From IMG/VR virus record IMGVR_UViG_3300042465_007929, positions 1-64,000 of that record: a stretch of DNA of 64,000 nt, one strand, 5' to 3'. The notes below the pieces were generated by a model that did not search any database, had not been told where the DNA came from, and saw only the letters and a program-made list of their open reading frames with translations. Source of the DNA: a virus. Shown one piece after another: positions 496 to 27,942 of this stretch (the stretch's first letter is position 1; every line of letters begins with the position of its first letter). The translations under genes and the position numbers were made by a program.

Positions 496-1215
496 GTGAA
501 CTCATTAAATTCAAAAATTCAAAAAGATTATTCTCATTTAGACCATAAATACGGTTATGTTCCAAATTTTGATAAAACTCAAAGTTATGCATTAGGTTTA
601 TTATGGGCTGATGGATGGCTTACTAAACCAATTTGTAGATCTAGAAATCTTGCTATAGAAGTTTTAGAATCTGATTTTATTGATTTTGAAGAGTCATTAA
701 GTTCTTTAGGAAAAGTAACTGTTCGCAAAAGACATAGAAATGGAAGAAATCCTCAAGCTGGAGCTTTAATTACCAATAAAAATTTATGTGAATGGCTTTT
801 TGAAATAGGATTTAAAGATAAATCAATTATTTCTCCCAATAAATTAATGAGTTTTATTCCTGAAAAATGCAAAAAACATTTCATAAGAGGTTGGGTTGAT
901 GGCGATGGGTGTTTTTATGTTCATGAAAAAAATAATACATTTCAATTTATTATAGCAGGTTCTTACGAACAAGATTGGTCATCTTTTATAGAAATATTAA
1001 ACACATTAAAAATAAAATATACTTATAAACAAAAAACTCAAATCCAAAATGACAGAGCTAATAAATGTTCTATAATAAGAATTACAGGTTTAAAAAATTT
1101 AAAAGTTTTTATTGATTATATTTATGATGATGCAGATTTTTTTCTAAAAAGAAAATATCAAAAAGCATTAATAATTAAAAATAGAGAATTAAAATTTATT
1201 AAGAATGCTCAATAA
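496..1215 (+). mobile_element. Free-standing LAGLIDADG homing endonuclease
   Basis: Two motifs YALGLLWADG and FIRGWVDGDG; opposite orientation to its neighbours; GTGTAA 8 nt upstream of the start. Confidence 0.9.
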
Positions 1216-2821: not shown

Positions 2822-3363
2822 ATTATTTTTAATAATTATATTAAATCTTTTTCTTTTTGATTATAGCGTCAATAGGTCGTAGAAAATTACAGTCATCACA
2901 CACGCATTCTTCATCAACTTTCTGCCCACCATAACCTTCTCGAATACTACGGAGCGCGGAATAAGCTGCGTCACGCTCGCGCTCCATCTTTCGGGCAAAT
3001 TCTAACATTTTAGAATAGTCACAAGCTGTACTGCTCCATAACTCCATAAGGCGATTATCTTCTTCGTCTGTCTCTGGTGTGTCACTCATTCTCCAAATAC
3101 GATTAAAAGGCTAATAATAACTAAAAGGGTAAAAAAGATTTCATGTGTCATAGTTTAATGAATATGGATAGCTTCACAGTCAAATGGATTATCATTACGA
3201 TCAGCAACTTCATGCTTACCATAATACCATTCAGTATGAACGTCAAGTTTAATTTTTACATTCACAGCGTATTTAACTTCATCTACACCATCTTCATAAC
3301 CACTAACGACTACCATGAGTTCTGGATCATATGATTGCAGCTTTTCTATTAATTCTTTAACTT

Positions 3364-4416
3364 TCATAAATTAGCTTTGCAGTGTTCTTCATGGTGGTAA
3401 TCCCAATACTCCCCGCAGTCATCGCACTGCATCAAAGAATTTACTTTTCCATGAAATGCTTTATTGATTACTGCTTTATTGATTACTGCTTCTAAATCTT
3501 CAATTTTCATCTTGAGTTTAAGGTTCTCTTCGATTAGCAACTCAGGTTGATACTCATCATCAGACAATAAGCCCAATGCTTTTTGTGCAATCAACCTGCA
3601 AGTTTCAGACTTTCGCGGTCGTTTAATAATCTCTTCAAGAGATTCTTTGTAAGATAAACAGTCAAGAATCCATAAGCCTACACTTTGATGTTTATCGCCT
3701 TCTTGATGCAGACATCTTAGATATTCTTGCCCATCTTGTGTGCTTTTAAATAGTCTACTTTTAACTTTTAATGCTTCAAGTTCTGCACGAAGAACCTGAG
3801 TTTCTCCACTGCCTAAGTTGTTCTTAAACAAAACATCTAGCATCTGAATAGCAGAAAGATGTTTGTTGGCTGCAAGTCCAGAGTAGTATTCGTAATGAGT
3901 CTTAATTGCCTTCTCAAGCGATTCCAAGTCTTCTCTATCTGCCCAAGCTTCAATCTTAGCCTTATCAGCTATACCAATTAATAGAGCGGTATTGTCAAGG
4001 ATGTAACCAGCACTAGGATGATCAAAGAAGTTGGGCATTGATTGAGAAATCAATTCATTGGCTTCATCTTGATTACTTTCTAGCAGAGCATTTTCTCTAA
4101 CATAATACTTAACACGTTCAGGAATGTTCTCATATGAATGAGAAGTGACATTGCCTACAGGAAGTTCAAAGAGAGTTTTATCGAGAATGTCTCTTTGTAT
4201 TTTGGAAACATCGGTCTCAGTCTCAAGTTCCTTTCGAAGCTTAAAGATTTCGTTTTGATACCAAAGGCAGTCTTGTTGGTATTGTTCGATAGTTTTTGTC
4301 ATAGTAGATTTTGTCATACTAGATTCATCATAAGCATCATACTTTTCAAAGCAGGTCATACATGTATCATATACTTCAGTAAAAAGTGTCTGGGTGCAAT
4401 GTTTACAGCGTTTCAT
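3364..4416 (-). CDS. Hypothetical coiled-coil protein with CxxC motifs
   Basis: Likely start MKRCKHC at 4416, because the longer ORF-track start overlaps 4403-4750. Confidence 0.55.
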   Translation of the reverse strand: MKRCKHCTQTLFTEVYDTCMTCFEKYDAYDESSMTKSTMTKTIEQYQQDCLWYQNEIFKLRKELETETDVSKIQRDILDKTLFELPVGNVTSHSYENIPERVKYYVRENALLESNQDEANELISQSMPNFFDHPSAGYILDNTALLIGIADKAKIEAWADREDLESLEKAIKTHYEYYSGLAANKHLSAIQMLDVLFKNNLGSGETQVLRAELEALKVKSRLFKSTQDGQEYLRCLHQEGDKHQSVGLWILDCLSYKESLEEIIKRPRKSETCRLIAQKALGLLSDDEYQPELLIEENLKLKMKIEDLEAVINKAVINKAFHGKVNSLMQCDDCGEYWDYHHEEHCKANL

Positions 4417-10384: not shown

Positions 10385-11281
10385 ATGTCAATAGATCTTG
10401 GAAATACCCCAGTAGGAACACCGCCGAATCCAACACAGCAAGAACAAATTCGTCTGGCGTTGGACGCTATTACTGATGCTCCTAGTGATGGTGAAAAGTA
10501 TGTGATGCAGGATGGACAATGGGTCTATCTGACTCCTCCGCCAAACAGAGCATATGACATTGATAACATTGTTCTTTTTGAAGAAGCAAGTGACATTATT
10601 CCAAATAATTGGACGAATACTAATCCCGTAGCAGTCGCTAGTGTTGACTTTAAATCAACTCTGACCAGTATCGGAGATGAGGCGTTCTATAGCTGCTCTG
10701 CCCTGACGAGCGTGACGATCCCTAACAGCGTGACCAGCATCGGGGATGATGTGTTCAATAGCTGCTCTGGTTTGACGAGCTTAACCATCGGCAACGGCGT
10801 AACAACTATTGGTAGTGTAAATACAGCATATTCTGGTGCGTTCTATTTATGCACAAGCCTAACGAGCGTGACGATTCCTGACAGCGTCACAAGTCTCGGT
10901 AGTTATTCATTTTATGGCTGTTACGATTTAGTAAGCGTCGTGCTTGGAAATGGATTGACAACTATTAACAACGGTACGTTCCAGTACTGCTCCAGTCTGA
11001 CGAGCATCACGATCCCCAACAGCGTCACCAGCATAGGCAATTATGCGTTCCAAGCCTGCACTGTCTTGACGAGCGTGACGATCCCCAACAGCGTAACTAG
11101 CATCGGACTAAATGCGTTTGCATACAGCGGCCTAACAAGTATCTCTTGCTTGGCAACTACCGCACCAACAATCGGAACTGATGCTTTTTTAAATGTTCTG
11201 GCAACTGAGATTCACGTTCCATTTGGAGCCACTGGATACGGCACAACATATGGTGGCTTGACAGTAATTGCTAATCTTTAA
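10385..11281 (+). CDS. BspA-type LRR_5 protein, paralog 1
   Basis: Repeats LTSVTIPNSVTSIGxxAFxxC; N-terminus IDLGNTPxGTPP with a DAPSDG motif. Confidence 0.9.
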   Translation: MSIDLGNTPVGTPPNPTQQEQIRLALDAITDAPSDGEKYVMQDGQWVYLTPPPNRAYDIDNIVLFEEASDIIPNNWTNTNPVAVASVDFKSTLTSIGDEAFYSCSALTSVTIPNSVTSIGDDVFNSCSGLTSLTIGNGVTTIGSVNTAYSGAFYLCTSLTSVTIPDSVTSLGSYSFYGCYDLVSVVLGNGLTTINNGTFQYCSSLTSITIPNSVTSIGNYAFQACTVLTSVTIPNSVTSIGLNAFAYSGLTSISCLATTAPTIGTDAFLNVLATEIHVPFGATGYGTTYGGLTVIANL

Positions 11282-11310
11282 CACATACAACAATTTTTAA
11301 TTAATTTATT

Positions 11311-12252
11311 ATGGCAATCGATTTAGGAAATACTCCAATAGGAACACCACCCACAACAGGACAAAAGCAACAGATGCGTCAAGCTCTAGTTGCAGTTGGT
11401 AATGCTCCTATTGATGATGAAAAGTATGTTATGTTAGATGGAGAATGGGTCTTCTTGATTCCTAATCAGGCATATGATATTAATAATGTTGTTCTTGTAG
11501 AAGAAACTAGTAATATAATTCCCGACAGTTGGACCAGTGATTATGCTGCTGATGTTACTAGTATACGTTTAATTCCTACATTAACAAGCATCGGAAGTTA
11601 TGCGTTTCAGTCCTGCATTGGCCTGACAAGCGTGACCCTTCCAAACAGCCTTACCAGCATCGGGAGTAATGCGTTCAACTACTGCATCAGCCTGACGAGC
11701 ATAACGATCCCCAATAGCGTCACTAGCATCGGGAGTGATGCGTTTAGTTACTGCGGTCTAACAAGTATCACTGTACCCGCTAGCGTAACTAGCATTGGGA
11801 GTACAGCGTTTGGATACAACCCCAGCCTAACAAGCGCAATTATTAATAATGGCGTTCCATATATTTCCGACGAAATGTTCGGAGGTTGTGGTAACTTAAC
11901 GAGTGTCACTATACCCAACAGCGTCACCTACATCGGAGATTATTCGTTCGGAGGCTGTGGTAGCTTGACGAGTGTGACGATACCAGCCAGTGTAACTATT
12001 CTCAGGTCACAGGCGTTCAAAAGCTGCACTGGCCTGACGAGCGTGACGATCCCTAACAGCGTCACTAGCATCGGACTAGATGCGTTCCAAAACTGCGCCA
12101 GTCTAAGCAGTATCTCTTGCTTGGCAACTACCGCACCAACAATCGGAACTGATGCTTTCTTTGGCGTTTTGGCAACTGAGATTCATGTCCCAATTGGAGC
12201 CACTGGATATGGAACAACGTATGGAGGACTAACAGTCATCGCAGATCTTTGA
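11311..12252 (+). CDS. BspA-type LRR_5 protein, paralog 2
   Basis: Same repeats and the same N- and C-terminal caps. Confidence 0.9.
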   Translation: MAIDLGNTPIGTPPTTGQKQQMRQALVAVGNAPIDDEKYVMLDGEWVFLIPNQAYDINNVVLVEETSNIIPDSWTSDYAADVTSIRLIPTLTSIGSYAFQSCIGLTSVTLPNSLTSIGSNAFNYCISLTSITIPNSVTSIGSDAFSYCGLTSITVPASVTSIGSTAFGYNPSLTSAIINNGVPYISDEMFGGCGNLTSVTIPNSVTYIGDYSFGGCGSLTSVTIPASVTILRSQAFKSCTGLTSVTIPNSVTSIGLDAFQNCASLSSISCLATTAPTIGTDAFFGVLATEIHVPIGATGYGTTYGGLTVIADL

Positions 12253-12283
12253 CGCACATAACAATTTTTAACTTATACTTATC

Positions 12284-13624
12284 ATGGCAATCGATTTAGG
12301 AAATACACCAGTAGGAACACCACCTACATTAGGACAGCAGCAGCAAATACGCGACGCGACTGGCATGATTACTTTTCCGCAAAATGACGGTAAGAAATAT
12401 GTTCGTCTAAATGAAGAATGGGTTCTATTGGCTGTTTATGCGGAGAGTACAGTCTATGACTCAGGCGATGCGGTTGTTTTCACGGAAGCAAGCAATGCTA
12501 TTCCAGATGCTTGGACGTTTAGTGATCGTGAGGCAGTCGCTAGTGTTGACTTTAAATCAACTCTGACCAGCATCGGGAATAATGCGTTCAACTACTGCTC
12601 TGGCCTGACGAGCATTACAATTCCTAATAGCGTGACCAGTCTCGGAGAGGGAGCGTTCTGGGGCTGCTCTGGCTTGACGAGTGTGACGATCCCTAATAGC
12701 GTGACCAGCCTTGGGAGTAGAGCGTTCTATGACTGTGGTGGCCTGACGAGTGTGACGATTGGCAGCGGCGTTACAACGATTAGCAGTAGTGCGTTTGGTT
12801 ACTGCGGCCTAACGAGCCTAACTATCCCCAACAGTGTCACTAGCATCGCGTATGGGGCGTTCTACAGTTGCACTTCCCTGACGAGCGTGACGATCCCGAA
12901 CAGCGTCACTAGCATCGGCGATTATGCATTCTATCGATGCTCTAGCCTGACGAGCGTGACAATCCCCGACAGCGTCACCAGCATCGGGAGTTATGCGTTC
13001 TATGCTTGCTCTGCCCTAACCAGCGTAACAATTCCTAGCAGCGTTACAACGATTGGCAGTAATGCGTTTGGTTACTGCAATAGCCTGACAAACGTGACCA
13101 TCGGTAGCGGCGTTACCAACATCGGGAGTTATTCATTCTATAATTGTGTTAGTCTAACTGCAATCACGGTTAGTTCACTTAATCTTATATATTCAAGTGT
13201 AGATGGAGTTTTATTCGACAAGGATCAAATTACTCTACTTCAATATCCAGAAGGCAACCCCGAATTAACATATTCTATACCCAATAGTGTCATAATTTTA
13301 GAAGGCAATGCTTTCGCTAATTGCCATAACCTGACGAGCGTGATAATTCCCAATAGCGTCACCACCATCGAGACTGCCGCGTTCTTCAACGCCTCTAGCC
13401 TGACAAGCGTGACGATTGGTAGCGGCGTGACCAGCATCGGGGGTCAGGCGTTCTATGGATGCACTAGTCTAAACTATATCGCTTGTTTGGCAACTAACGC
13501 TCCAACAATCCCAATCGACGATGGTGTTTTCGGCAATATTCTGGCAACTGAGATTCATGTTCCAATTGGAGCTACTGGATATGGTACAATTTATGGTGGA
13601 TTAAATGTAGTTCAGGACATATAA
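12284..13624 (+). CDS. BspA-type LRR_5 protein, paralog 3
   Basis: Same architecture with more repeats and a YSSVDGVLF insert. Confidence 0.9.
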   Translation: MAIDLGNTPVGTPPTLGQQQQIRDATGMITFPQNDGKKYVRLNEEWVLLAVYAESTVYDSGDAVVFTEASNAIPDAWTFSDREAVASVDFKSTLTSIGNNAFNYCSGLTSITIPNSVTSLGEGAFWGCSGLTSVTIPNSVTSLGSRAFYDCGGLTSVTIGSGVTTISSSAFGYCGLTSLTIPNSVTSIAYGAFYSCTSLTSVTIPNSVTSIGDYAFYRCSSLTSVTIPDSVTSIGSYAFYACSALTSVTIPSSVTTIGSNAFGYCNSLTNVTIGSGVTNIGSYSFYNCVSLTAITVSSLNLIYSSVDGVLFDKDQITLLQYPEGNPELTYSIPNSVIILEGNAFANCHNLTSVIIPNSVTTIETAAFFNASSLTSVTIGSGVTSIGGQAFYGCTSLNYIACLATNAPTIPIDDGVFGNILATEIHVPIGATGYGTIYGGLNVVQDI

Positions 13625-14926: not shown

Positions 14927-15621
14927 TGGAGCGGAATGTCAGAGCAAGGTATAAGATTTGATGAAAATTATACATTTTTCAAGAAAAATCGGAAAATCAT
15001 TTCTTTTTTTATGATTTAAATCTTTAGATGAAATTCTCATTATATTCCAACCATTTTTTATTAAATTTGAATCTCTAATAGTATCTTTTGTTTTATCATG
15101 CCATTTTATACCATCATATTCTATATTTATTTTGTAATCTGGTAAAGCTATATCCAGATAAATATTATCGACTTTATATTCTTGTTGTAATTCTGGAAAT
15201 GTTTTCTTTAATTCTTCAAATAAGACATTTTGCCAATAAGATTTTTTGCCAGCACATTTTCTATTTGGATGCTTTTCAGGATTTAATTTAAAAAATTCTT
15301 TTTTTGATAAAGACATTTTTAATTTACTTTCATCGCTTCTTTTTGAACCAAGATTTTTTAAAGATAAAGATTTTTTTCTTTCAAGAGTCCAACCTTCTTT
15401 AAGTTTTTGCTTTCTATCTTCAGTACAAGGCAAAGTTTTTTTACCTTTCATTGGAGATATTCTGCCAGTTGCTTTTTGACTTCTTATCAAATTGATTTCT
15501 TCAGTCCAAATTCTTGAATTAGCGCAAGATCTGGAACAAAAAACACCACTACCAAATGTTCCATCATGATCTATATTACATTTTTTGCATTGCATATAAT
15601 TATTTACACAATCGAACTAAC
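14927..15621 (-). pseudogene. Relic tRNA 3' half (Gly-like) split by the endonuclease cassette
   Basis: 15610-15621 GUUAGUUCGAUU plus 14927-14942 CUGAC-AUUCCGC-U-CCA rebuild a T-arm and an acceptor strand. Confidence 0.75.
14939..15595 (-). mobile_element. Free-standing homing endonuclease (NUMOD3-like + DUF559/Vsr-like PD-(D/E)xK)
   Basis: FCSRSC, SDESKLKMS, EY...LDIALP..KINIEYDG..WH, GWNIMRI. Confidence 0.85.
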
Positions 15622-15716: not shown

Positions 15717-15785
15717 TGGTGGATGTTGGGGAATTGAACCCCGTCCGCAATAGTAAACTATTACGTCGAATCCCTATGGACACCC
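15717..15785 (-). ncRNA. Minimal tmRNA tRNA-like domain lacking the mRNA-like domain
   Basis: GGGUGUC-CAUAGGGAUUCGAC-[GUAAUAG UUUA CUAUUGC]-GGAC-GGGGUUCAAUUCCCC-AACAUCC-A-CCA; G3.U70 and A73. Confidence 0.8.
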
Positions 15786-16579: not shown

Positions 16580-17284
16580 ATGAATGTATTATACACTGAG
16601 CTAGATTTTTCTCAAGCTAAATTAAGTGATAAATTAAAATTAAAGTGTTTAACGTGTAATGGTATTTTTTTAAAAAAGAAAAAATATATTATAGATATAA
16701 TAAATCGAGGAGGTCATTTTACTAAAGCTGGAACTGGAGATTTTTGCTCTCATAAATGCTCTTCTTTTTCAAAAGTAAAAGCAAAAGAATGTTCTTGTGT
16801 GAATTGTAATAAATCTTTTATTAAAAAACAAAGTCAAATTAAAAAAACTTCAAATCATTTCTGTTCTAGTTCTTGTGCCGCTTCTTATAATAATAAGAAT
16901 AAAACTCATGGAACTAGAAGATCTAAATTAGAAACTTGGTTAGAAGAAAAACTTACTAATCTTTATCCAAATTTAGAAATACATTTTAATCGTAAAGATA
17001 CAATTAATTCTGAATTAGACATTTATATACCATCTTTTAAATTGGCTGTAGAACTCAATGGAATTTTTCACTATGAACCAATACATGGGATAGAAAAATT
17101 AGAGAAAATACAAAATAATGATGAAAGAAAATTTCAAGCCTGTTTAGAACGAGGTATAGAATTTTGTATTATAGATACTTCTGGTCAAAAGTATTTTAAA
17201 GAATCAACATCTCAGAAATTTTTAAATATTATCTGTGATATAATAAAATCAAAAGAAATGAAGGCGGTGTCAGATTCGAACTGA
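16580..17284 (+). mobile_element. Free-standing homing endonuclease (Zn fingers + PD-(D/E)xK, DUF559-like)
   Basis: CxxC/FCSxxC repeats and ELDIYIPSFKLAVELNGIFHY; stop codon lies inside the antisense tRNA-Ser T-arm. Confidence 0.85.
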
Positions 17285-19587: not shown

Positions 19588-19821
19588 TTATAAAATTTCT
19601 GGATTATTGGAATTTCTTTTATTTCTTTGGATAGCTTTTCCAAGCTTTATAATCTCATTAATCACTTCTGGTGAAAAAGAATCTAAGCTGTTCTTTTGTC
19701 TTCTTTGAATGGCTTTTTCAGCTCTGCATTGCTTGCATCTATAATTTCCATTTCGTCCTAAAACAAAATCTTGCTCTCCGTGTTTTTCGCAAATCTGTTT
19801 AATAATTTTTGGTTGTTCCAT
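19588..19821 (-). pseudogene. Probable internally deleted HNH-type endonuclease remnant
   Basis: CEKHG...YRCKQCR Zn motif with no nuclease core; GTGTAT 8 nt upstream. Confidence 0.4.
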
Positions 19822-19880
19822 ACTATTATATACACACCAACTAAATTAATTAATTTTATTAAAAACAAAAAAAAAGCTAA

Positions 19881-20011
19881 TCTATCGCTGAAGAAGTCCT
19901 CCATATCCACAGAGGTTAATGATCCTTCTTCACTTTTCTACAAATACTAACTCGCTGGAAATTTCCTGTCTGTTTTTTCTGAATACTTCGGGCGATCAAA
20001 CGCACGATAGA
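19881..20011 (-). ncRNA. Stem-closed structured RNA module A
   Basis: Terminal UCUAUCG/CGAUAGA; internal UGAAGAAG/CUUCUUCA and CCUC/GAGG. Confidence 0.55.
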
Positions 20012-20014
20012 AAT

Positions 20015-20128
20015 TGGATTTGCGGCTCAGGTCGCTATCACTCACAATGATTGACATTAAAGTCAGCTATATAAGATTGCTCCTTGTGAAAACGTCTTGG
20101 TTCACGATGACCCCTCAATGACCGCAAA
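20015..20128 (-). ncRNA. Stem-closed RNA module B with an acceptor-like stem and CCA
   Basis: UUUGCGG/CCGCAAA-U-CCA; internal GGUC/GACC, UCACAA/UUGUGA, UGAC/GUCA. Confidence 0.6.
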
Positions 20129-20132
20129 AGTA

Positions 20133-20288
20133 TTTATCTGTCAGACCTTTTACTAAAATATGCCCCTCGCGCATATATGACATCTTCGCTGGTTCACGGA
20201 TGGGCCACTTTGTAGCGATTCACATCGCCTCAGACGGATTCCCAGCATAGGTCTTCATAGCCGTATGTAGATATTCTCGACAGATAAA
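20133..20288 (-). ncRNA. Stem-closed structured RNA module C
   Basis: 10-bp terminal stem UUUAUCUGUC/GACAGAUAAA; internal GCUGG/CCAGC, GCGAU/AUCGC, AUAUGC/GCAUAU. Confidence 0.6.
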
Positions 20289-20293
20289 AAATG

Positions 20294-20402
20294 TAGAAGA
20301 AACTGGATTCGAACCAATATTGTATCATATTGCCTAAGCAATCAAGGAATCAAACCTTGTCGAACAACTGCCGTTGTTGCATTTCCATTATGCTATTCTT
20401 CT
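20294..20402 (-). ncRNA. Anticodon-less tRNA mimic with two T-arm-like hairpins
   Basis: AGAAGAA/UUCUUCU acceptor, GCAU-AAUGGAA-AUGC D-arm, ACAAC-GGCA-GUUGU, extra CAAGG-UUUGAUU-CCUUG, T-arm AUUGG-UUCGAAU-CCAGU. Confidence 0.75.
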
Positions 20403-20406
20403 GAAA

Positions 20407-21098
20407 GTTGTGCAGTACTCTCCTGCTGTCACACCCATAATCCATAGTTGCGACCTATAAGATCTAGCTGATGTTTCTAAAATTTAGAATGACTGAGATG
20501 TCTAATCTAGGACTCTCAAATAGCGGTCTTCATTAAAGATATGCCCTCAGCCATTCAGTTGTCCATAGGGTGTGCATCCCATCGCCTCAAGCAGGACTGG
20601 CTCTACCTAGTACTATAACCATTACCATAGGTGGTTTCTTTACGGTATATTCCTATTCGCCAAGGAAGTAAAGAACGGTTAGACGAAAGTAGACCAATTG
20701 CCCGCCTAAGCAGGCAATTGGAATGTTGTCCATGGCATCATTCGATGCTTACGTTCACGCAGGACTGGCACTAGCTAATGGTTAGCCCACATTAGTCAGG
20801 GTCCATAGAGTATTCACTCTTCGATTCAAGCAGGACTGGCATTATCTATGGATATCCTCATAGCAGGAGAAGGAAGCCCATAACCTTCGTAAGGCTTTTT
20901 GGTATCTACAATGTATGGTTATTGACCCACACGGAATTTCAAGCCTGTAAGCATAACTTAATATGCTCCTAACTCACCGATTTCCATTGTAAAAATAATC
21001 TCTACCGTTAAACCGACTTTCACTGGTCACGAATTCTTCGCAAATTAAATTTGCTTCACTGGTAGAGTCGCCAACGCATCGTAATCGAATACATTAGC
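20407..21098 (-). ncRNA. Large (~690 nt) multi-domain structured RNA with a triplicated motif
   Basis: No ORF of 60 aa or more in any frame, raised GC, many independent stems, GCCAGUCCUGC...AUGGAC three times. Confidence 0.7.
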
Positions 21099-21103
21099 AA
21101 AAT

Positions 21104-21178
21104 TGGCGAGCAGGCGGGAATCTAACCCGCGATCTTTAGCCTATGGGTCTAACGCTTTATACACTAAGCTACTGCTCC
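21104..21178 (-). tRNA. Degenerate tRNA-like element (CAU), pseudo-tRNA or mimic
   Basis: 6-bp acceptor + G-CCA, D-loop without GG, loop CCCAUAG, T-loop UUAGAUU. Confidence 0.6.
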
Positions 21179-21188
21179 TAAAAATTGA

Positions 21189-21260
21189 TTGCGGGTAGTA
21201 GATTCGAACTACTGTGAAATGCTTATGAGACACCTATCTGAACCACTCGATTAACCCGCG
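21189..21260 (-). tRNA. tRNA-fMet-like (CAU)
   Basis: CGCGGGU/ACCCGCA with a C1.A72 mismatch and CU-CAU-AA; lacks the three G-C pairs in the anticodon stem. Confidence 0.8.
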
Positions 21261-21268
21261 ATTAAATA

Positions 21269-21375
21269 CTTTTTAATAGTAAGTCTTTGTCGTTTTCAAA
21301 TCCCTACCTGAATACACAGTTTAAGATTTTCCTACTTACAGAACGGAGCGTGAAGCTCCTTTTCCTATTAAAAAG
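21269..21375 (-). ncRNA. Stem-closed structured RNA module D
   Basis: 11-bp terminal stem CUUUUUAAUAG/CUAUUAAAAAG; GGAGC-UUCAC-GCUCC hairpin. Confidence 0.55.
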
Positions 21376-21406
21376 CAAAACTAATAATAAAAATAATAAT
21401 ATGAAA

Positions 21407-21468
21407 GAGCAAATTTTCCTCCAACCGATGATTTGAGGCAATCTTTTGAACCTGACTTAGCCCTGCTC
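21407..21468 (-). ncRNA. Stem-closed RNA module E at the operon 5' end
   Basis: GAGCAGG/UUUGCUC stem with CCUC/GAGG inside. Confidence 0.4.
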
Positions 21469-21482
21469 AATTGATATAATTA

Positions 21483-21511
21483 GTTATAGACGATTTTGGG
21501 GTTTTTGTCAA
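21483..21511 (-). promoter_or_regulatory. sigma70-like promoter of the tRNA/ncRNA operon
   Basis: TTGACA-N17-TATAAC. Confidence 0.75.
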
Positions 21512-21518
21512 CAGTTTT

Positions 21519-22082
21519 TTACAAAAACTTTTCCCACTCTTTTCTGATACTTGGAACATGAAGGAAAACGCTAGGAATACTAGGCGCTTTCACGATTTCA
21601 TTTTTTACATTATAGTAAGGAGTATGACTAGCCTTTTTTTGATTACATTGAAGACAGGCAAGAGTCCTATTATCATGTTCATCTGTGCCGCCTTTACTTT
21701 TTGGCTTGATATGATCAATAGTAAGATCTGCAACACTAAACTTCTCTAAGCAATATTGGCAAGTAGAATTATAAATTTTAGCTAATTCAACTAGAGAAAA
21801 CCTTTTCTTCTTTGGTCTTTTGAAAAATCTGCTAGTAACAACAATTACTGTTGGAATTGGCCATGATTTCTTTGCACTGCGAAGAACTGGTTGATCTCCA
21901 TAGAATTCAGCATTAGTATTCCACTTATCTACAGAATCAAATAAATTATAATTCTTATCTAGCGCCGAAATATTACCACTTAATAGATGCGCGAAAGCTG
22001 CTTTTGCTGTGATAGCAGTAACAGGTTGCCACGCATTATTAAGAAGAAGAGTTGTTTTAGTGTTGCAGTCTACGATATTCAT
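21519..22082 (-). CDS. HNH endonuclease (McrA-like)
   Basis: CQYC...TIDHIKPKSKGG...N...C..CN..K. Confidence 0.9.
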   Translation of the reverse strand: MNIVDCNTKTTLLLNNAWQPVTAITAKAAFAHLLSGNISALDKNYNLFDSVDKWNTNAEFYGDQPVLRSAKKSWPIPTVIVVTSRFFKRPKKKRFSLVELAKIYNSTCQYCLEKFSVADLTIDHIKPKSKGGTDEHDNRTLACLQCNQKKASHTPYYNVKNEIVKAPSIPSVFLHVPSIRKEWEKFL

Positions 22083-25293: not shown

Positions 25294-27942
25294 TTATATT
25301 GTTACTGTCCAGCCTTTGAGTATAGCTGTGCCTGTTTTTAATTGTCTAAATGATAAGGTAGTCGCTCCTCCCGCTGACATTGGTCGAGAAACAACTATAT
25401 TTGTATTAGGAGTAATTGATACAATTTCAGTTCGGTGTCTCACTGTACCATAGCCAGTTCCGGTCAATGTCAATGCAACGCCACCTACGGAAGCTGCTAC
25501 TTGGAAAGTGCCAGAAGCTGCATTAACCACATAATATATCCTGTTTATTACAATACCTGTCGTAGTGACTATTGTAGCGAAGGATACTTCATCACCGTCG
25601 CTCAAGCCATGACTGGCAATAGTAACAACGCTTCCAGTAGTAAATGTAACTGCTCTTGCTGTAGTTAGAGGAGAATTTGTACCGAGAACCTGCATACCAA
25701 CCGCTAAACCTGTTGTACTTGCCATCGTTATTGTAGTACTATTTGCTGTTGTTGTAGCTGCTAAACTAATGTTGGTCAGCGCTCCCCAGTTGTTACTAAT
25801 TGTTAAGGTCTGACTTGCTGCGCCTATCGTACCCAAATTGGTAAAGATGGATTCTAACTCTTCTTTGGATAATTTACATCCAGAATAAGAAATCGTAAAT
25901 CTAGTTCCGCTCAATGCTCCACGAGTAAGTGAAGTACAACCCTGAAATGTATTAGTAAAATTGGCAGTTATAACTGATGATGAAACGAGTGGTGGAGCCG
26001 TAACCAAAGAAGTACAATTAAGAAACAAATTATTCATAGTTGCAACTAAAGATGTGTTAAGCTGTGGTACAGAGACAAGCTGACTACAAACCTGAAATGC
26101 ACTACTTATATCGGTAAGTAAAGAAGTATTGAATGATGGTATGGCAGTAAGTGAATAGCAAGTACTGAACATATTAGCCATAGTTGTAACTTTTGATGTA
26201 TCGAATAATGGTACGGTTTGAAGCGAATAACAATTCGTAAACATACCAGACATGTTCGTAACTTTAGCAGTATCAAATAGTGGCACACTAACTAGATTGT
26301 AACAACCGCTAAACATAGCGGCCATTAACGTAACATTTGATGTATTAAAAAAGGGTACAGAGACAAGATCGTTACAATTCTGAAACAAAGAAGTCATATT
26401 CGTAACGCTAGACGTATTAAATAGCGGAACACTGATAAGTGAATAGCAGAAGAAAAACATCTGCTGCATATTCGTAACTGCTGTTGTATTAAACAACGGC
26501 ACAGAGATGAGTGAAACACAACCATTAAACATAGCACCCATATTTAAAACTGATACTGTATTAAACAGCGGTACTGTAGTTAGTGAGGTGCATCCCTGAA
26601 ACATATAACTTATATCTGTTACTAACGATGTATTGAACAATGGTACAGATGCAAGTGTATTACAAGCATTAAACATCTGATTCATATTCGTAACCTTTGA
26701 GGTATCAAATAGCGGCACAGCAATAAGTGAACGACAGGTGTTAAAAAAGCTGTTCATTGCTGTAACTTTTGATGTATCGAACAACGGTACTATAGTTAGT
26801 GAGGTGCATGACTGAAACATACTACTCATAGTCGTAACCAATCCAGTATTAAACAGCGGTACAGAGATAAGCGAAGAACAACCAAAAAACATATTGTTCA
26901 TAGTCGTAACTTTCGACGTATCAAACAATGGTACACTACTTAATGAAACGCAACCATAAAACATAGTGGCGGTATTTGTCAGTGCTGGAGTATTGAATGC
27001 TGGAATAGCGACAAGTGAAGTACAGTTTTGAAATGCAGTATCCATGCTCGTAACTTTTGACGTATCAAATGGAGGTATACTGGTAAGTGCATGGCAACCA
27101 TTAAACGCATTAGCAATCGTTGTAACTGATGATGTGTTAAAAAATGGCACAGAGACAAGCGAATGGCAATTATTGAACATAGAACCCATGTTCGTAACTG
27201 ATGCTGTGTTAAATAGCGGCACTGAAATAAGTGACCGACAATTTAAAAACATACTGCTTGTATTGGTAATCGTAGCCGTAGTATAAAAATTTGATATCTG
27301 TTTTAGCGCAGCTAAATGCATAAATGCATTAGCAAAACTAGTAATTAGCCCCATATTGATTCCTGAAAAATGAATGAGACCTCTACAGTAAACTGATGGG
27401 GCATTAGTGCCGCCTAAAATTAAACTCGTTAAATTTGGACAAGAAAGTATTATTTCTAATATTGGCGATGAAGCAGGAAACGTCGAACCAGTAATCGCAT
27501 AGGGTTGGTTGAAGTTGACACTTGTTAAGTTCTGCCCAGCTTGTGGAGTAATCGTAACGATAGCCATCTTATAGCCATCGCCCGTAACTGTGGCATTTAA
27601 ATCGGAATCGGTATAATCGTATTCGTGTTGTGCTTTAACACCAGTAGCGACGTTTTCAGTATTACCGTCACCCCAATCAACCGTATATGCTCCCGCTATT
27701 GTAAAAGCCAAAAAATTAGATCCTTGCGGAAACACGGGCATCAACAGGGCTATCTTTTGCTCCGATGATGTTATGGTTGGCATAGTTAGCCAATCAGCAG
27801 GACGAGTCCATGCATTAGTACTAGTAGGGTTATCGGGGCGAGGCGGTTGTTTTATAACTGATCGATCAAATCTATTCTTTTTAAAAAAAGAAGATTTGCG
27901 AGAAGCCAATGGTGAAACTTTTTGTCCGTATCGAATACTCAT
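25294..27942 (-). CDS. DUF285/BspA-like LRR protein, probable fibre or receptor-binding protein
   Basis: About 20 tandem 22-aa repeats VPLFNTSxVTxMxxMFxxCxSL; VDWGDG (PKD-like) N-terminal part; Thr-rich beta C-terminus. Confidence 0.85.
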   Translation of the reverse strand: MSIRYGQKVSPLASRKSSFFKKNRFDRSVIKQPPRPDNPTSTNAWTRPADWLTMPTITSSEQKIALLMPVFPQGSNFLAFTIAGAYTVDWGDGNTENVATGVKAQHEYDYTDSDLNATVTGDGYKMAIVTITPQAGQNLTSVNFNQPYAITGSTFPASSPILEIILSCPNLTSLILGGTNAPSVYCRGLIHFSGINMGLITSFANAFMHLAALKQISNFYTTATITNTSSMFLNCRSLISVPLFNTASVTNMGSMFNNCHSLVSVPFFNTSSVTTIANAFNGCHALTSIPPFDTSKVTSMDTAFQNCTSLVAIPAFNTPALTNTATMFYGCVSLSSVPLFDTSKVTTMNNMFFGCSSLISVPLFNTGLVTTMSSMFQSCTSLTIVPLFDTSKVTAMNSFFNTCRSLIAVPLFDTSKVTNMNQMFNACNTLASVPLFNTSLVTDISYMFQGCTSLTTVPLFNTVSVLNMGAMFNGCVSLISVPLFNTTAVTNMQQMFFFCYSLISVPLFNTSSVTNMTSLFQNCNDLVSVPFFNTSNVTLMAAMFSGCYNLVSVPLFDTAKVTNMSGMFTNCYSLQTVPLFDTSKVTTMANMFSTCYSLTAIPSFNTSLLTDISSAFQVCSQLVSVPQLNTSLVATMNNLFLNCTSLVTAPPLVSSSVITANFTNTFQGCTSLTRGALSGTRFTISYSGCKLSKEELESIFTNLGTIGAASQTLTISNNWGALTNISLAATTTANSTTITMASTTGLAVGMQVLGTNSPLTTARAVTFTTGSVVTIASHGLSDGDEVSFATIVTTTGIVINRIYYVVNAASGTFQVAASVGGVALTLTGTGYGTVRHRTEIVSITPNTNIVVSRPMSAGGATTLSFRQLKTGTAILKGWTVTI

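What the first reader, a model, noticed from the sequence alone, without database searches (positions are those of the whole stretch)
20561..20840. Triplicated covarying ~41-nt motif inside a ~690-nt RNA
Seen on the minus strand: three units at 20801-20840, 20728-20769 and 20561-20601 share GCCA-GUCC-UGC(U/G)UGA-N-CG-N-[hairpin]-AU-GGAC. The closing stem and asymmetric loop are invariant, while the inner hairpin changes sequence but keeps pairing: AGAGU-GAAU-ACUCU, GCAUC-GAAU-GAUGC and, less cleanly, GGG...CCC. Spacers differ in length and are themselves structured. This within-locus covariation points to selection on RNA structure. Inference: a multivalent protein- or ligand-binding RNA, such as a sponge or type III antitoxin-like mimic, or a member of the large phage/tRNA-associated RNA classes (GOLLD, ROOL, MISL), which I cannot confirm by eye.
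Basis: partly seen in the sequence, partly recalled or inferred. Interest (0 to 1): 0.85.

Follow-up and report, generated by a model that had tools for sequence, protein, structure and literature searches.

The report
Triplicated double-knotted phage small RNA
The three repeats are real copies of an uncatalogued ~70-base RNA that folds into two consecutive knots and sits among the tRNA genes of uncultured phages; compensating mutations preserve its shape in 30 versions, it is a movable unit rather than part of one 690-base RNA, and its job is untested.

Summary
The repeats are real and correctly placed, but the structure was misread. Homologues (30 distinct copies in 23 phage contigs) show a ~70-nt double pseudoknot. 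A sequence-free 5' H-type knot (P1/P2) abuts a conserved 3' knot: the supposed asymmetric loop is one strand of a covarying hairpin (P3), GUCC in its 7-nt loop pairs with the 3' GGAC (also AUCC/GGAU and GCCC/GGGC), and a variable hairpin (P4) lies between them. The unit occurs in 1-3 copies per locus, next to different neighbours, once alone between two tRNAs; some related loci have none. The ~690-nt RNA is therefore a string of shuffled modules. There is no Rfam hit (GOLLD, ROOL, MISL, ribozymes, riboswitches included), no match in T4 or T5, none in the bacterial genomes searched, and no phage-encoded partner was found. Best reading: a small stable RNA processed from the tRNA operon whose invariant core binds a host factor (structure about 0.9, function about 0.4). 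A new self-cleaving ribozyme is not excluded (0.2). Expression could not be checked. The scan earlier reported a related phage island (e1-5728212) and several other double-knot tRNA-cluster RNAs.

The parts
20801..20868 (-). Unit 1 (double pseudoknot). P1 5' strand 20868-20865 pairs with 20858-20855; P2 about 20863-20859 with 20850-20846; P3 20844-20839 with 20831-20826; 7-nt loop 20838-20832; pseudoknot stem P5 20836-20833 with 20804-20801; P4 hairpin 20820-20807
   Evidence: CM score 77.3 bits
20728..20800 (-). Unit 2, fused directly to the 3' end of unit 1. P3 20773-20768 with 20760-20755; loop 20767-20761; P4 20748-20735; P5 3' strand 20731-20728
   Evidence: (45.2 bits); positional orthologues in L014 and L089
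20561..20636 (-). Unit 3, fused to the 3' end of module K; longer loop in the 5' knot, whose register is ambiguous. P3 20605-20600 with 20592-20587; loop 20599-20593; P4 20580-20568; P5 3' strand 20564-20561
   Evidence: (58.5 bits)
20869..20897 (-). Module J: separate compact H-type pseudoknot (AAGCC/GGCUU and GAAGG/CCUUC) abutting unit 1; also found without the unit
   Evidence: pairing read from the sequence
20907..20990 (-). Module B: separate conserved multibranch RNA, often but not always upstream of a unit
20997..21098 (-). Module A: separate structured RNA, absent next to most units
20632..20690 (-). Module K: long stem ending in A-CCA, directly 5' of unit 3
20487..20558 (-). Module D: separate stem-closed RNA 3' of unit 3
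21106..21178 (-). tRNA (CAU anticodon) upstream of the module string
20294..20402 (-). tRNA-like module F downstream; absent from L014 and L089
21483..21511 (-). Likely operon promoter, TTGACA-N17-TATAAC
   Evidence: read from the sequence; not listed by the consensus scan, which requires T at the last position; function inferred

Best explanation
Each repeat is a gene for a ~70-nt non-coding RNA of the phage tRNA operon. SHOWN by comparative sequence: it folds into two consecutive pseudoknots. The 5' knot (P1/P2) keeps only its pairing. The 3' knot (P3, 7-nt loop, P5, inserted P4) keeps nine invariant bases at the P3/P4/P5 junction. The unit moves and changes copy number independently of its neighbours. 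INFERRED: it is transcribed with the tRNAs from the promoter at 21511-21483 and cut out by host tRNA-processing nucleases at the A/U-rich linkers, alone or as fused strings (J-unit 1-unit 2, K-unit 3). INFERRED, weakest step: the 5' knot is a rigid scaffold, and the conserved 3' knot is a binding surface for a host protein, most likely an RNA-acting defence or translation-control factor that it occupies as a decoy, so extra copies raise the dose.
For: Pairing in 30 distinct copies: P3 inner pairs 30/30, 30/30, 26/30 and 29/30, with 15 different strand combinations; P5 30/30 with three versions; P1 of at least 3 bp in 29/30, with 21 different 5' strands. P1 score 8.96 against 5.66 +/- 0.37 when the upstream bases are shuffled, largest of 500 shuffles 7.04. 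Whole structure exceeds shuffles and slid registers. Many covarying versions were found without using the unit's sequence, through module B or the HNH gene. Every copy mapped lies in a tRNA or RNA-module island on the tRNA strand, and the 10 nt after it are 83% A/U. It stands alone between tRNA-Arg and tRNA-His in L164. The three paralogues are old: each matches its L014 counterpart (41/44, 46/46, 44/45) better than its siblings (29-35 of 45-46). No TnpB/Cas12f, TROVE or phrog_850 gene in the complete genome, which points away from those phage-encoded partners. Precedents: T4 rnaC/rnaD and T5 RNAI-IV are annotated as stable RNAs of tRNA clusters; phage TE expands a pseudo-ToxI repeat to suppress ToxN (PMC5086642).
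Against: No partner is identified and the host is unknown. The invariant bases could serve tertiary folding alone, or catalysis. Some of the invariance reflects how copies were selected (pattern and model). Compensatory changes in P5 trace to only about 2-3 independent events on a poorly resolved tree. The 5' knot is weak in L164, and L178 scores only 27.7 bits, no higher than the best chance locus (27.9 bits; different model round).
Confidence: 0.42

Rival explanations
1. A new class of small self-cleaving ribozyme that helps cut up the tRNA-operon transcript, in the role theta ribozymes play in gut phages.
For: Size 65-75 nt, two pseudoknots, strong covariation and a small invariant core: the profile used to pick ribozyme candidates (PMC10085705). 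It sits in phage tRNA islands, often fused to the 3' end of another RNA and once directly 3' of a tRNA. One invariant C may be unpaired, since the G opposite it has an alternative partner at the base of P4.
Against: No match to any Rfam ribozyme. CUGAnGA in 0 of 30 copies on the RNA strand, GAAA in 7; twister and pistol core words in none. Helix order is two consecutive knots, not the nested HDV/theta knot. Only 1 of 30 abuts a tRNA 3' end. The fused unit 1-unit 2 tandem has no obvious processing purpose. The ten non-hammerhead motifs picked by the same profile did not cleave.
Confidence: 0.2
2. A cis-acting 3' cap: a very stable knot appended to other island RNAs to stall 3'-to-5' exonucleases, with the conserved bases serving only the tertiary fold.
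For: Often fused without a linker to the 3' end of modules J, K, M, B or another unit, and followed by an A/U-rich tail. Last module before a terminator-like hairpin in L199. The C-A loop 1, short stem 2 and junction U resemble compact luteoviral pseudoknots (from my own knowledge, not tested).
Against: It also stands alone between two tRNAs (L164), and modules J and B occur without it (L131, L133, L139).
Confidence: 0.15
3. A free small-molecule aptamer (sponge) whose 3' knot has a riboswitch-like pocket.
For: The 3' knot has the same helix order as the HLout pseudoknot of preQ1-II (hairpin, inserted P4, 3' strand pairing into the loop; PMC11625349), with invariant C, U and A at the junction.
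Against: No Rfam riboswitch hit. No consistent downstream gene: the next ORF of at least 50 codons is 16-1195 nt away, 650-890 nt in the window. So it is not a regulatory leader, and a free sponge has little precedent.
Confidence: 0.1
4. One reading: three binding domains of one ~690-nt multivalent RNA of the GOLLD/ROOL kind.
For: The 706-nt stretch folds better than shuffles (z -3.6, 20 shuffles) and L014 keeps the whole string at 82% identity. Units 1 and 2 are fused.
Against: Module order and content differ in nearly every other carrier and most loci have one unit. No Rfam match. The long-range helices predicted in the window join modules that are not neighbours elsewhere.
Confidence: 0.07
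5. A selfish or neutral structured element that spreads by recombination inside the island, with no role for the phage.
For: Variable copy number and position; missing from several related loci; putative homing endonuclease genes in the island.
Against: Compensatory changes in all five helices and long retention of three diverged paralogues. No flanking target duplications were noticed in the contexts read (not searched systematically).
Confidence: 0.05

Closest known systems
Stable RNAs of unknown function in phage tRNA clusters: T4 rnaC/rnaD (species 1 and 2) and T5 RNAI, RNAIII, RNAIV, RNA1, RNA2, RNA2H
   Same: Small non-coding genes packed between tRNA genes on the same strand; T5's are annotated as of unknown function.
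   Different: No match of the model in the whole T4 or T5 genome; shorter (about 70 nt against 103-172 nt); present in up to three diverged copies.
Theta (minimal HDV-like) ribozymes of gut phages (PMC10879173)
   Same: Small, doubly pseudoknotted, associated with phage tRNA genes.
   Different: Theta/HDV knots are nested and cleave at a tRNA 3' end; here the knots are consecutive, only 1 of 30 copies abuts a tRNA 3' end, and no HDV-family model hits.
preQ1-II riboswitch aptamer (HLout pseudoknot; PMC11625349)
   Same: Helix order of the 3' knot: hairpin, inserted variable hairpin, 3' strand pairing into the loop.
   Different: No sequence or model match, no consistent downstream gene, and an extra H-type knot at the 5' end.
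Type III antitoxin RNAs (ToxI, antiQ, CptI) and phage TE pseudo-ToxI (PMC5086642)
   Same: Repeated pseudoknotted RNA monomers with A-rich tails; repeat number can vary.
   Different: Monomers are about twice the length of ToxI, doubly knotted, only 63-78% identical to each other, mostly single-copy, with no terminator-toxin gene arrangement.
GOLLD and ROOL large ornate RNAs (PMC12286853)
   Same: Phage RNAs of unknown function near tRNA islands, rich in pseudoknots.
   Different: Those are single RNAs of 650 to over 800 nt; this is a 70-nt module in a reshuffled string, with no Rfam hit.

Membership tests
GOLLD / ROOL / MISL | Match to the Rfam covariance model | tested here: not met
   No hit at the gathering score in the window or at E up to 10 in 19700-21500
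GOLLD / ROOL / MISL | One large RNA with conserved domain order | tested here: not met
   Modules are reshuffled among 28 loci
HDV-like / theta ribozyme | Nested double pseudoknot | tested here: not met
   Covariation gives two consecutive knots; no Rfam hit
HDV-like / theta ribozyme | 5' end within 5 nt of a tRNA 3' end | tested here: not met
   1 of 30 copies (L164), none in the window
Hammerhead ribozyme, including non-circular permutations | CUGAnGA and GAAA blocks, each beside its stems | tested here: not met
   CUGAnGA 0/30, GAAA 7/30 on the RNA strand; definition from PMC10085705
Twister / pistol / hatchet / twister-sister | Rfam model match or conserved core words | tested here: not met
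   No Rfam hit; twister and pistol core words absent
Any self-cleaving ribozyme | Site-specific self-cleavage | not testable with these tools
   Needs an in vitro assay
Type III antitoxin | Tandem array of short near-identical repeats | tested here: not met
   Cores share 29-35 of 45-46 positions; most loci have one copy
Type III antitoxin | Terminator followed by a ToxN/CptN/TenpN toxin gene | tested here: inconclusive
   No ORF of at least 50 codons within 650 nt downstream. PF13958 not found in the genome, but the control set did not ring either; CptN and TenpN were not searched
Type III antitoxin mimic | Neutralises a cognate toxin | not testable with these tools
   Needs a toxin-neutralisation assay
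preQ1-II or other riboswitch | Lies in the leader of a consistent gene class | tested here: not met
   Next ORF 16-1195 nt away or none; followed by tRNAs or other RNA modules
TnpB/Cas12f-linked RNA | Cognate TnpB-like gene in the genome | tested here: not met
   PF07282 not found in the complete 140-kb genome; control rang in 8 of 14 genomes
Y RNA / Ro60 partner | TROVE gene in the genome, or YrlA model match | tested here: not met
   PF05731 not found in G000 or four carrier fragments, control rang in 2; no YrlA hit on a unit
Phage tRNA-cluster stable RNA (T4/T5 type) | Non-coding gene between tRNA genes on the same strand | tested here: met
Phage tRNA-cluster stable RNA (T4/T5 type) | Accumulates as a stable processed RNA | not testable with these tools
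Phage tRNA-cluster stable RNA (T4/T5 type) | Homology to a named T4 or T5 RNA | tested here: not met
   No model match in either genome

The most novel reading that the evidence does not exclude
The unit is a structurally new class of small self-cleaving ribozyme (or a ligand-binding RNA enzyme) with two consecutive pseudoknots, used by uncultured phages to process their tRNA-island transcript.
Probability: 0.2. Interest if true: 0.85.

Novelty: new variant of a known kind. Interest (0 to 1): 0.55.

Why it matters
Phage tRNA clusters have long been known to carry stable RNAs of unexplained function (T4, T5). This one comes with a covariation-supported fold, a nine-base invariant core and natural compensatory variants, and at 70 nt it can be made and assayed in vitro without a cultured phage. 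A cleavage or binding result would give either a new ribozyme class or a first mechanism for such RNAs, possibly an RNA-based counter-defence. As it stands it is one more uncatalogued family of a kind this scan has met several times, and I could not check it against the 10,006 viral candidate RNAs of PMC10690425.

Tried and rejected
Rfam at the gathering score and at E up to 10: only tRNAs and chance hits. Nested energy folding of single units is no better than shuffles (z 0.41, -0.42, 0.50), and RNAalifold recovers only the GUCC/GGAC stem; neither can represent the knots. BLAST of 50,697 GenBank phage records with the island and with three unit variants: nothing meaningful. One GTDB pattern scan: no match. 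Model search of 121 genomes from the phylum of a Verrucomicrobiales MAG and of two MAGs: not found in those searched. Most pattern hits were chance or coding sequence; they score at most 28 bits. A hammerhead-like look in L135/L136 is not conserved and those bases pair in P3. Anticodon-loop or TGT-substrate mimicry (7-nt loop with GUC) rejected as strict mimicry: position 33 is invariant A, not U, and the triplet varies with its cis partner. The CCA-like bases 5' of many units are the P1 strand and change with their partner, so they are not a conserved tRNA end. Coding role: only short ORFs of 20-47 codons and variable unit lengths. Supplements of PMC10690425 are not held. Paper searches found no description of this motif. 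The host could not be fixed.

Full report
Context. The window is the first 64 kb of a 139,990-nt phage record rated complete. It encodes a DnaE-type polymerase, DnaB, a RecA-like protein, a Clp-type ATPase and lambda-like tail proteins, and has no close cultured relative (best matches about 31-35% for the ATPase and polymerase). RecA relatives at 73-75% identity lie on contigs binned into Bacteriovoracaceae and Verrucomicrobiales MAGs, which does not fix the host. The finding lies in a minus-strand tRNA island, between a CAU tRNA (21106-21178) and a tRNA-like element (20294-20402), with no ORF of 50 codons inside it.

The observation. The three units exist at the stated coordinates. They match a 15-nt core exactly, are the only copies in the genome, and are far beyond chance (about 7e-10 per extra copy). 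They are old paralogues: each is closer to its positional counterpart in another phage (L014) than to its siblings. Rfam has no family for them.

Homologues. Pattern scans with the unit gave L014/L041, L057, L068, L089, L094, L164, L167, L173 and L174. More diverged copies came without using the unit's sequence: from a pattern for neighbouring module B (L130-L136, L140, L142) and from contigs carrying the upstream HNH gene (L150, L178, L181, L191, L192, scored in 61 and 83). In all there are 30 distinct copies in 23 contigs. L134, L164 and L174 show no protein similarity to the window's phage in the DNA held, so the family may reach other phage groups. It was not found in several related HNH loci (L154, L179, L180, L193, L194; flanks only), in T4 or T5, in GenBank phages by BLAST or in the bacterial genomes searched.

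Structure. The four bases before the loop and the four after it pair in every family member, in 15 different combinations (for example GAGC/GCUU, GUGC/GCAU, GCUU/AAGU, GCCC/GGGU, GUAG/CUAC), extended by a conserved A-purine mismatch and a U-A pair. This hairpin (P3) has a 7-nt loop, CA-RYCC-U. The RYCC pairs with the 3' GGRY in 30 of 30 copies, as GUCC/GGAC (23), AUCC/GGAU (4) or GCCC/GGGC (3), which makes it a pseudoknot stem (P5). Upstream, a 5-bp hairpin (P2) abuts P3, and its loop pairs with the bases just 5' of it (P1, 3-6 bp, 29 of 30 copies, 21 different strands; shuffle control). On the model-fitted alignment 18 of 22 pairs show double-sided changes; the covariation score is 0.41 against 0.17 for shuffles and at most 0.13 for slid registers (an unfitted MAFFT alignment gave the same picture for P3, P4 and P5). 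Caveats: the sequences are related, the shuffle counts are not probabilities, the P5 changes amount to about 2-3 independent events, two P5 pairs never vary, and the first G of GGAC has an alternative partner at the base of P4. Nine bases are invariant in my set (C, A, C, C, U of the loop; A, U, G, G before and in P5), partly because of how copies were selected.

Not one 690-nt RNA. Mapping the window's modules onto 28 loci shows that order and content change from phage to phage. The unit follows module B, J, K, another small pseudoknot (M), another unit or a tRNA, and is followed by an A/U-rich tail (83% A/U). Copy number per locus is one to three; in L164 it stands alone between two tRNAs. 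In the window, J-unit 1-unit 2 and K-unit 3 are fused without linkers, so a processed product with two units in tandem is plausible.

How it most likely works. Transcription from the promoter-like TTGACA-N17-TATAAC at 21511-21483 and release by host tRNA-processing nucleases follow from position and from what is known of phage tRNA operons (my knowledge; not shown here). A scaffold knot with no sequence constraint next to a knot with an invariant junction suggests a recognition surface or active site. The complete genome lacks TnpB/Cas12f, TROVE and phrog_850 genes, and no gene consistently follows the unit. I therefore favour a trans-acting stable RNA that binds a host RNA-acting factor as a decoy, with copy number setting the dose, as in the pseudo-ToxI expansion of phage TE (PMC5086642); confidence 0.42 for the whole chain, about 0.9 for the fold. 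Rivals are a new self-cleaving ribozyme (0.2), a 3' exonuclease-blocking cap (0.15), a small-molecule sponge (0.1), a domain of one large RNA (0.07) and a selfish element (0.05). No expression data could be obtained.

Comparison with known systems. By position it works like the T4 and T5 tRNA-cluster stable RNAs but is not homologous to them by model search. It fails the tests for GOLLD/ROOL/MISL, HDV/theta, hammerhead (including the non-circular permutations of PMC10085705), twister, pistol, type III antitoxins and riboswitch leaders. The 3' knot shares only its helix order with preQ1-II (PMC11625349).

Novelty and verdict. An uncatalogued RNA family with a well-supported double-pseudoknot fold, within a known but unexplained kind. 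I found no description in the papers searched, but could not check the Fremin candidate set. The scan has already reported a related island (e1-5728212, which shares sequence words with locus L140) and other double-knot tRNA-cluster RNAs whose homology to this one I did not test. Interest 0.55.

Noticed in passing
window 15717-15785 (-); L014 5545-5613: A tmRNA tRNA-like domain with the whole message part replaced by a short hairpin. It is conserved in L014, where it has moved to sit directly 5' of module A.
   Followed up: partly
window 20869-20897 (-): Module J is a compact H-type pseudoknot, conserved in at least 9 loci, with or without a unit behind it.
   Followed up: partly
L131 about 770-800 (-); L140 about 2895-2925 (+); L155, L156, L167, L094: A further small conserved pseudoknot (module M, not in the window) is fused directly 5' of the unit in one subgroup, giving three knots in a row.
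   Followed up: partly
window 20907-20990 (-): Module B, a conserved multibranch RNA with a variable inner hairpin, found in 17 viral contigs, all chance-free tRNA-island loci as far as inspected; no Rfam hit.
   Followed up: partly
window 20294-20402 (-): tRNA-like element with a 4-nt loop in place of the anticodon loop and extra arms; present in L142, L147, L155, absent from L014 and L089.
   Followed up: partly
window 19878-20289 (-): Three more stem-closed modules (G, H, I), conserved and reshuffled in related phages.
   Followed up: partly
window 14939-15595 (-) and 16580-17284 (+): Two putative homing-endonuclease genes inside the tRNA island.
   Followed up: no
window 21519-22082 (-): An HNH gene, usually beside thyX, marks the 5' edge of the tRNA island across many related phages.
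   Followed up: partly
L164 4275-4346 and 2027-3451 (+): This carrier has a tRNA called as Pyl (amber-type anticodon) among 27 tRNAs, and a 474-aa DUF2828/DUF7788 protein (phrog_850, RNA-binding) in the island.
   Followed up: partly
L133 1740-2070; L134 4565-4884; L154 12643-12990; L179 15610-15943: Related phages carry full-length tmRNA genes, whereas the window's phage has only the mini version.
   Followed up: no
L131 about 3940-3990 (-); L138 about 690-740 (+): Sequence resembling a group I intron core next to tRNA-Leu(UAA) (seen).
   Followed up: no
window 10385-13624 (+) and 25294-27942 (-): BspA-type leucine-rich-repeat genes (GC-richer than the genome) and a DUF285 repeat protein.
   Followed up: no
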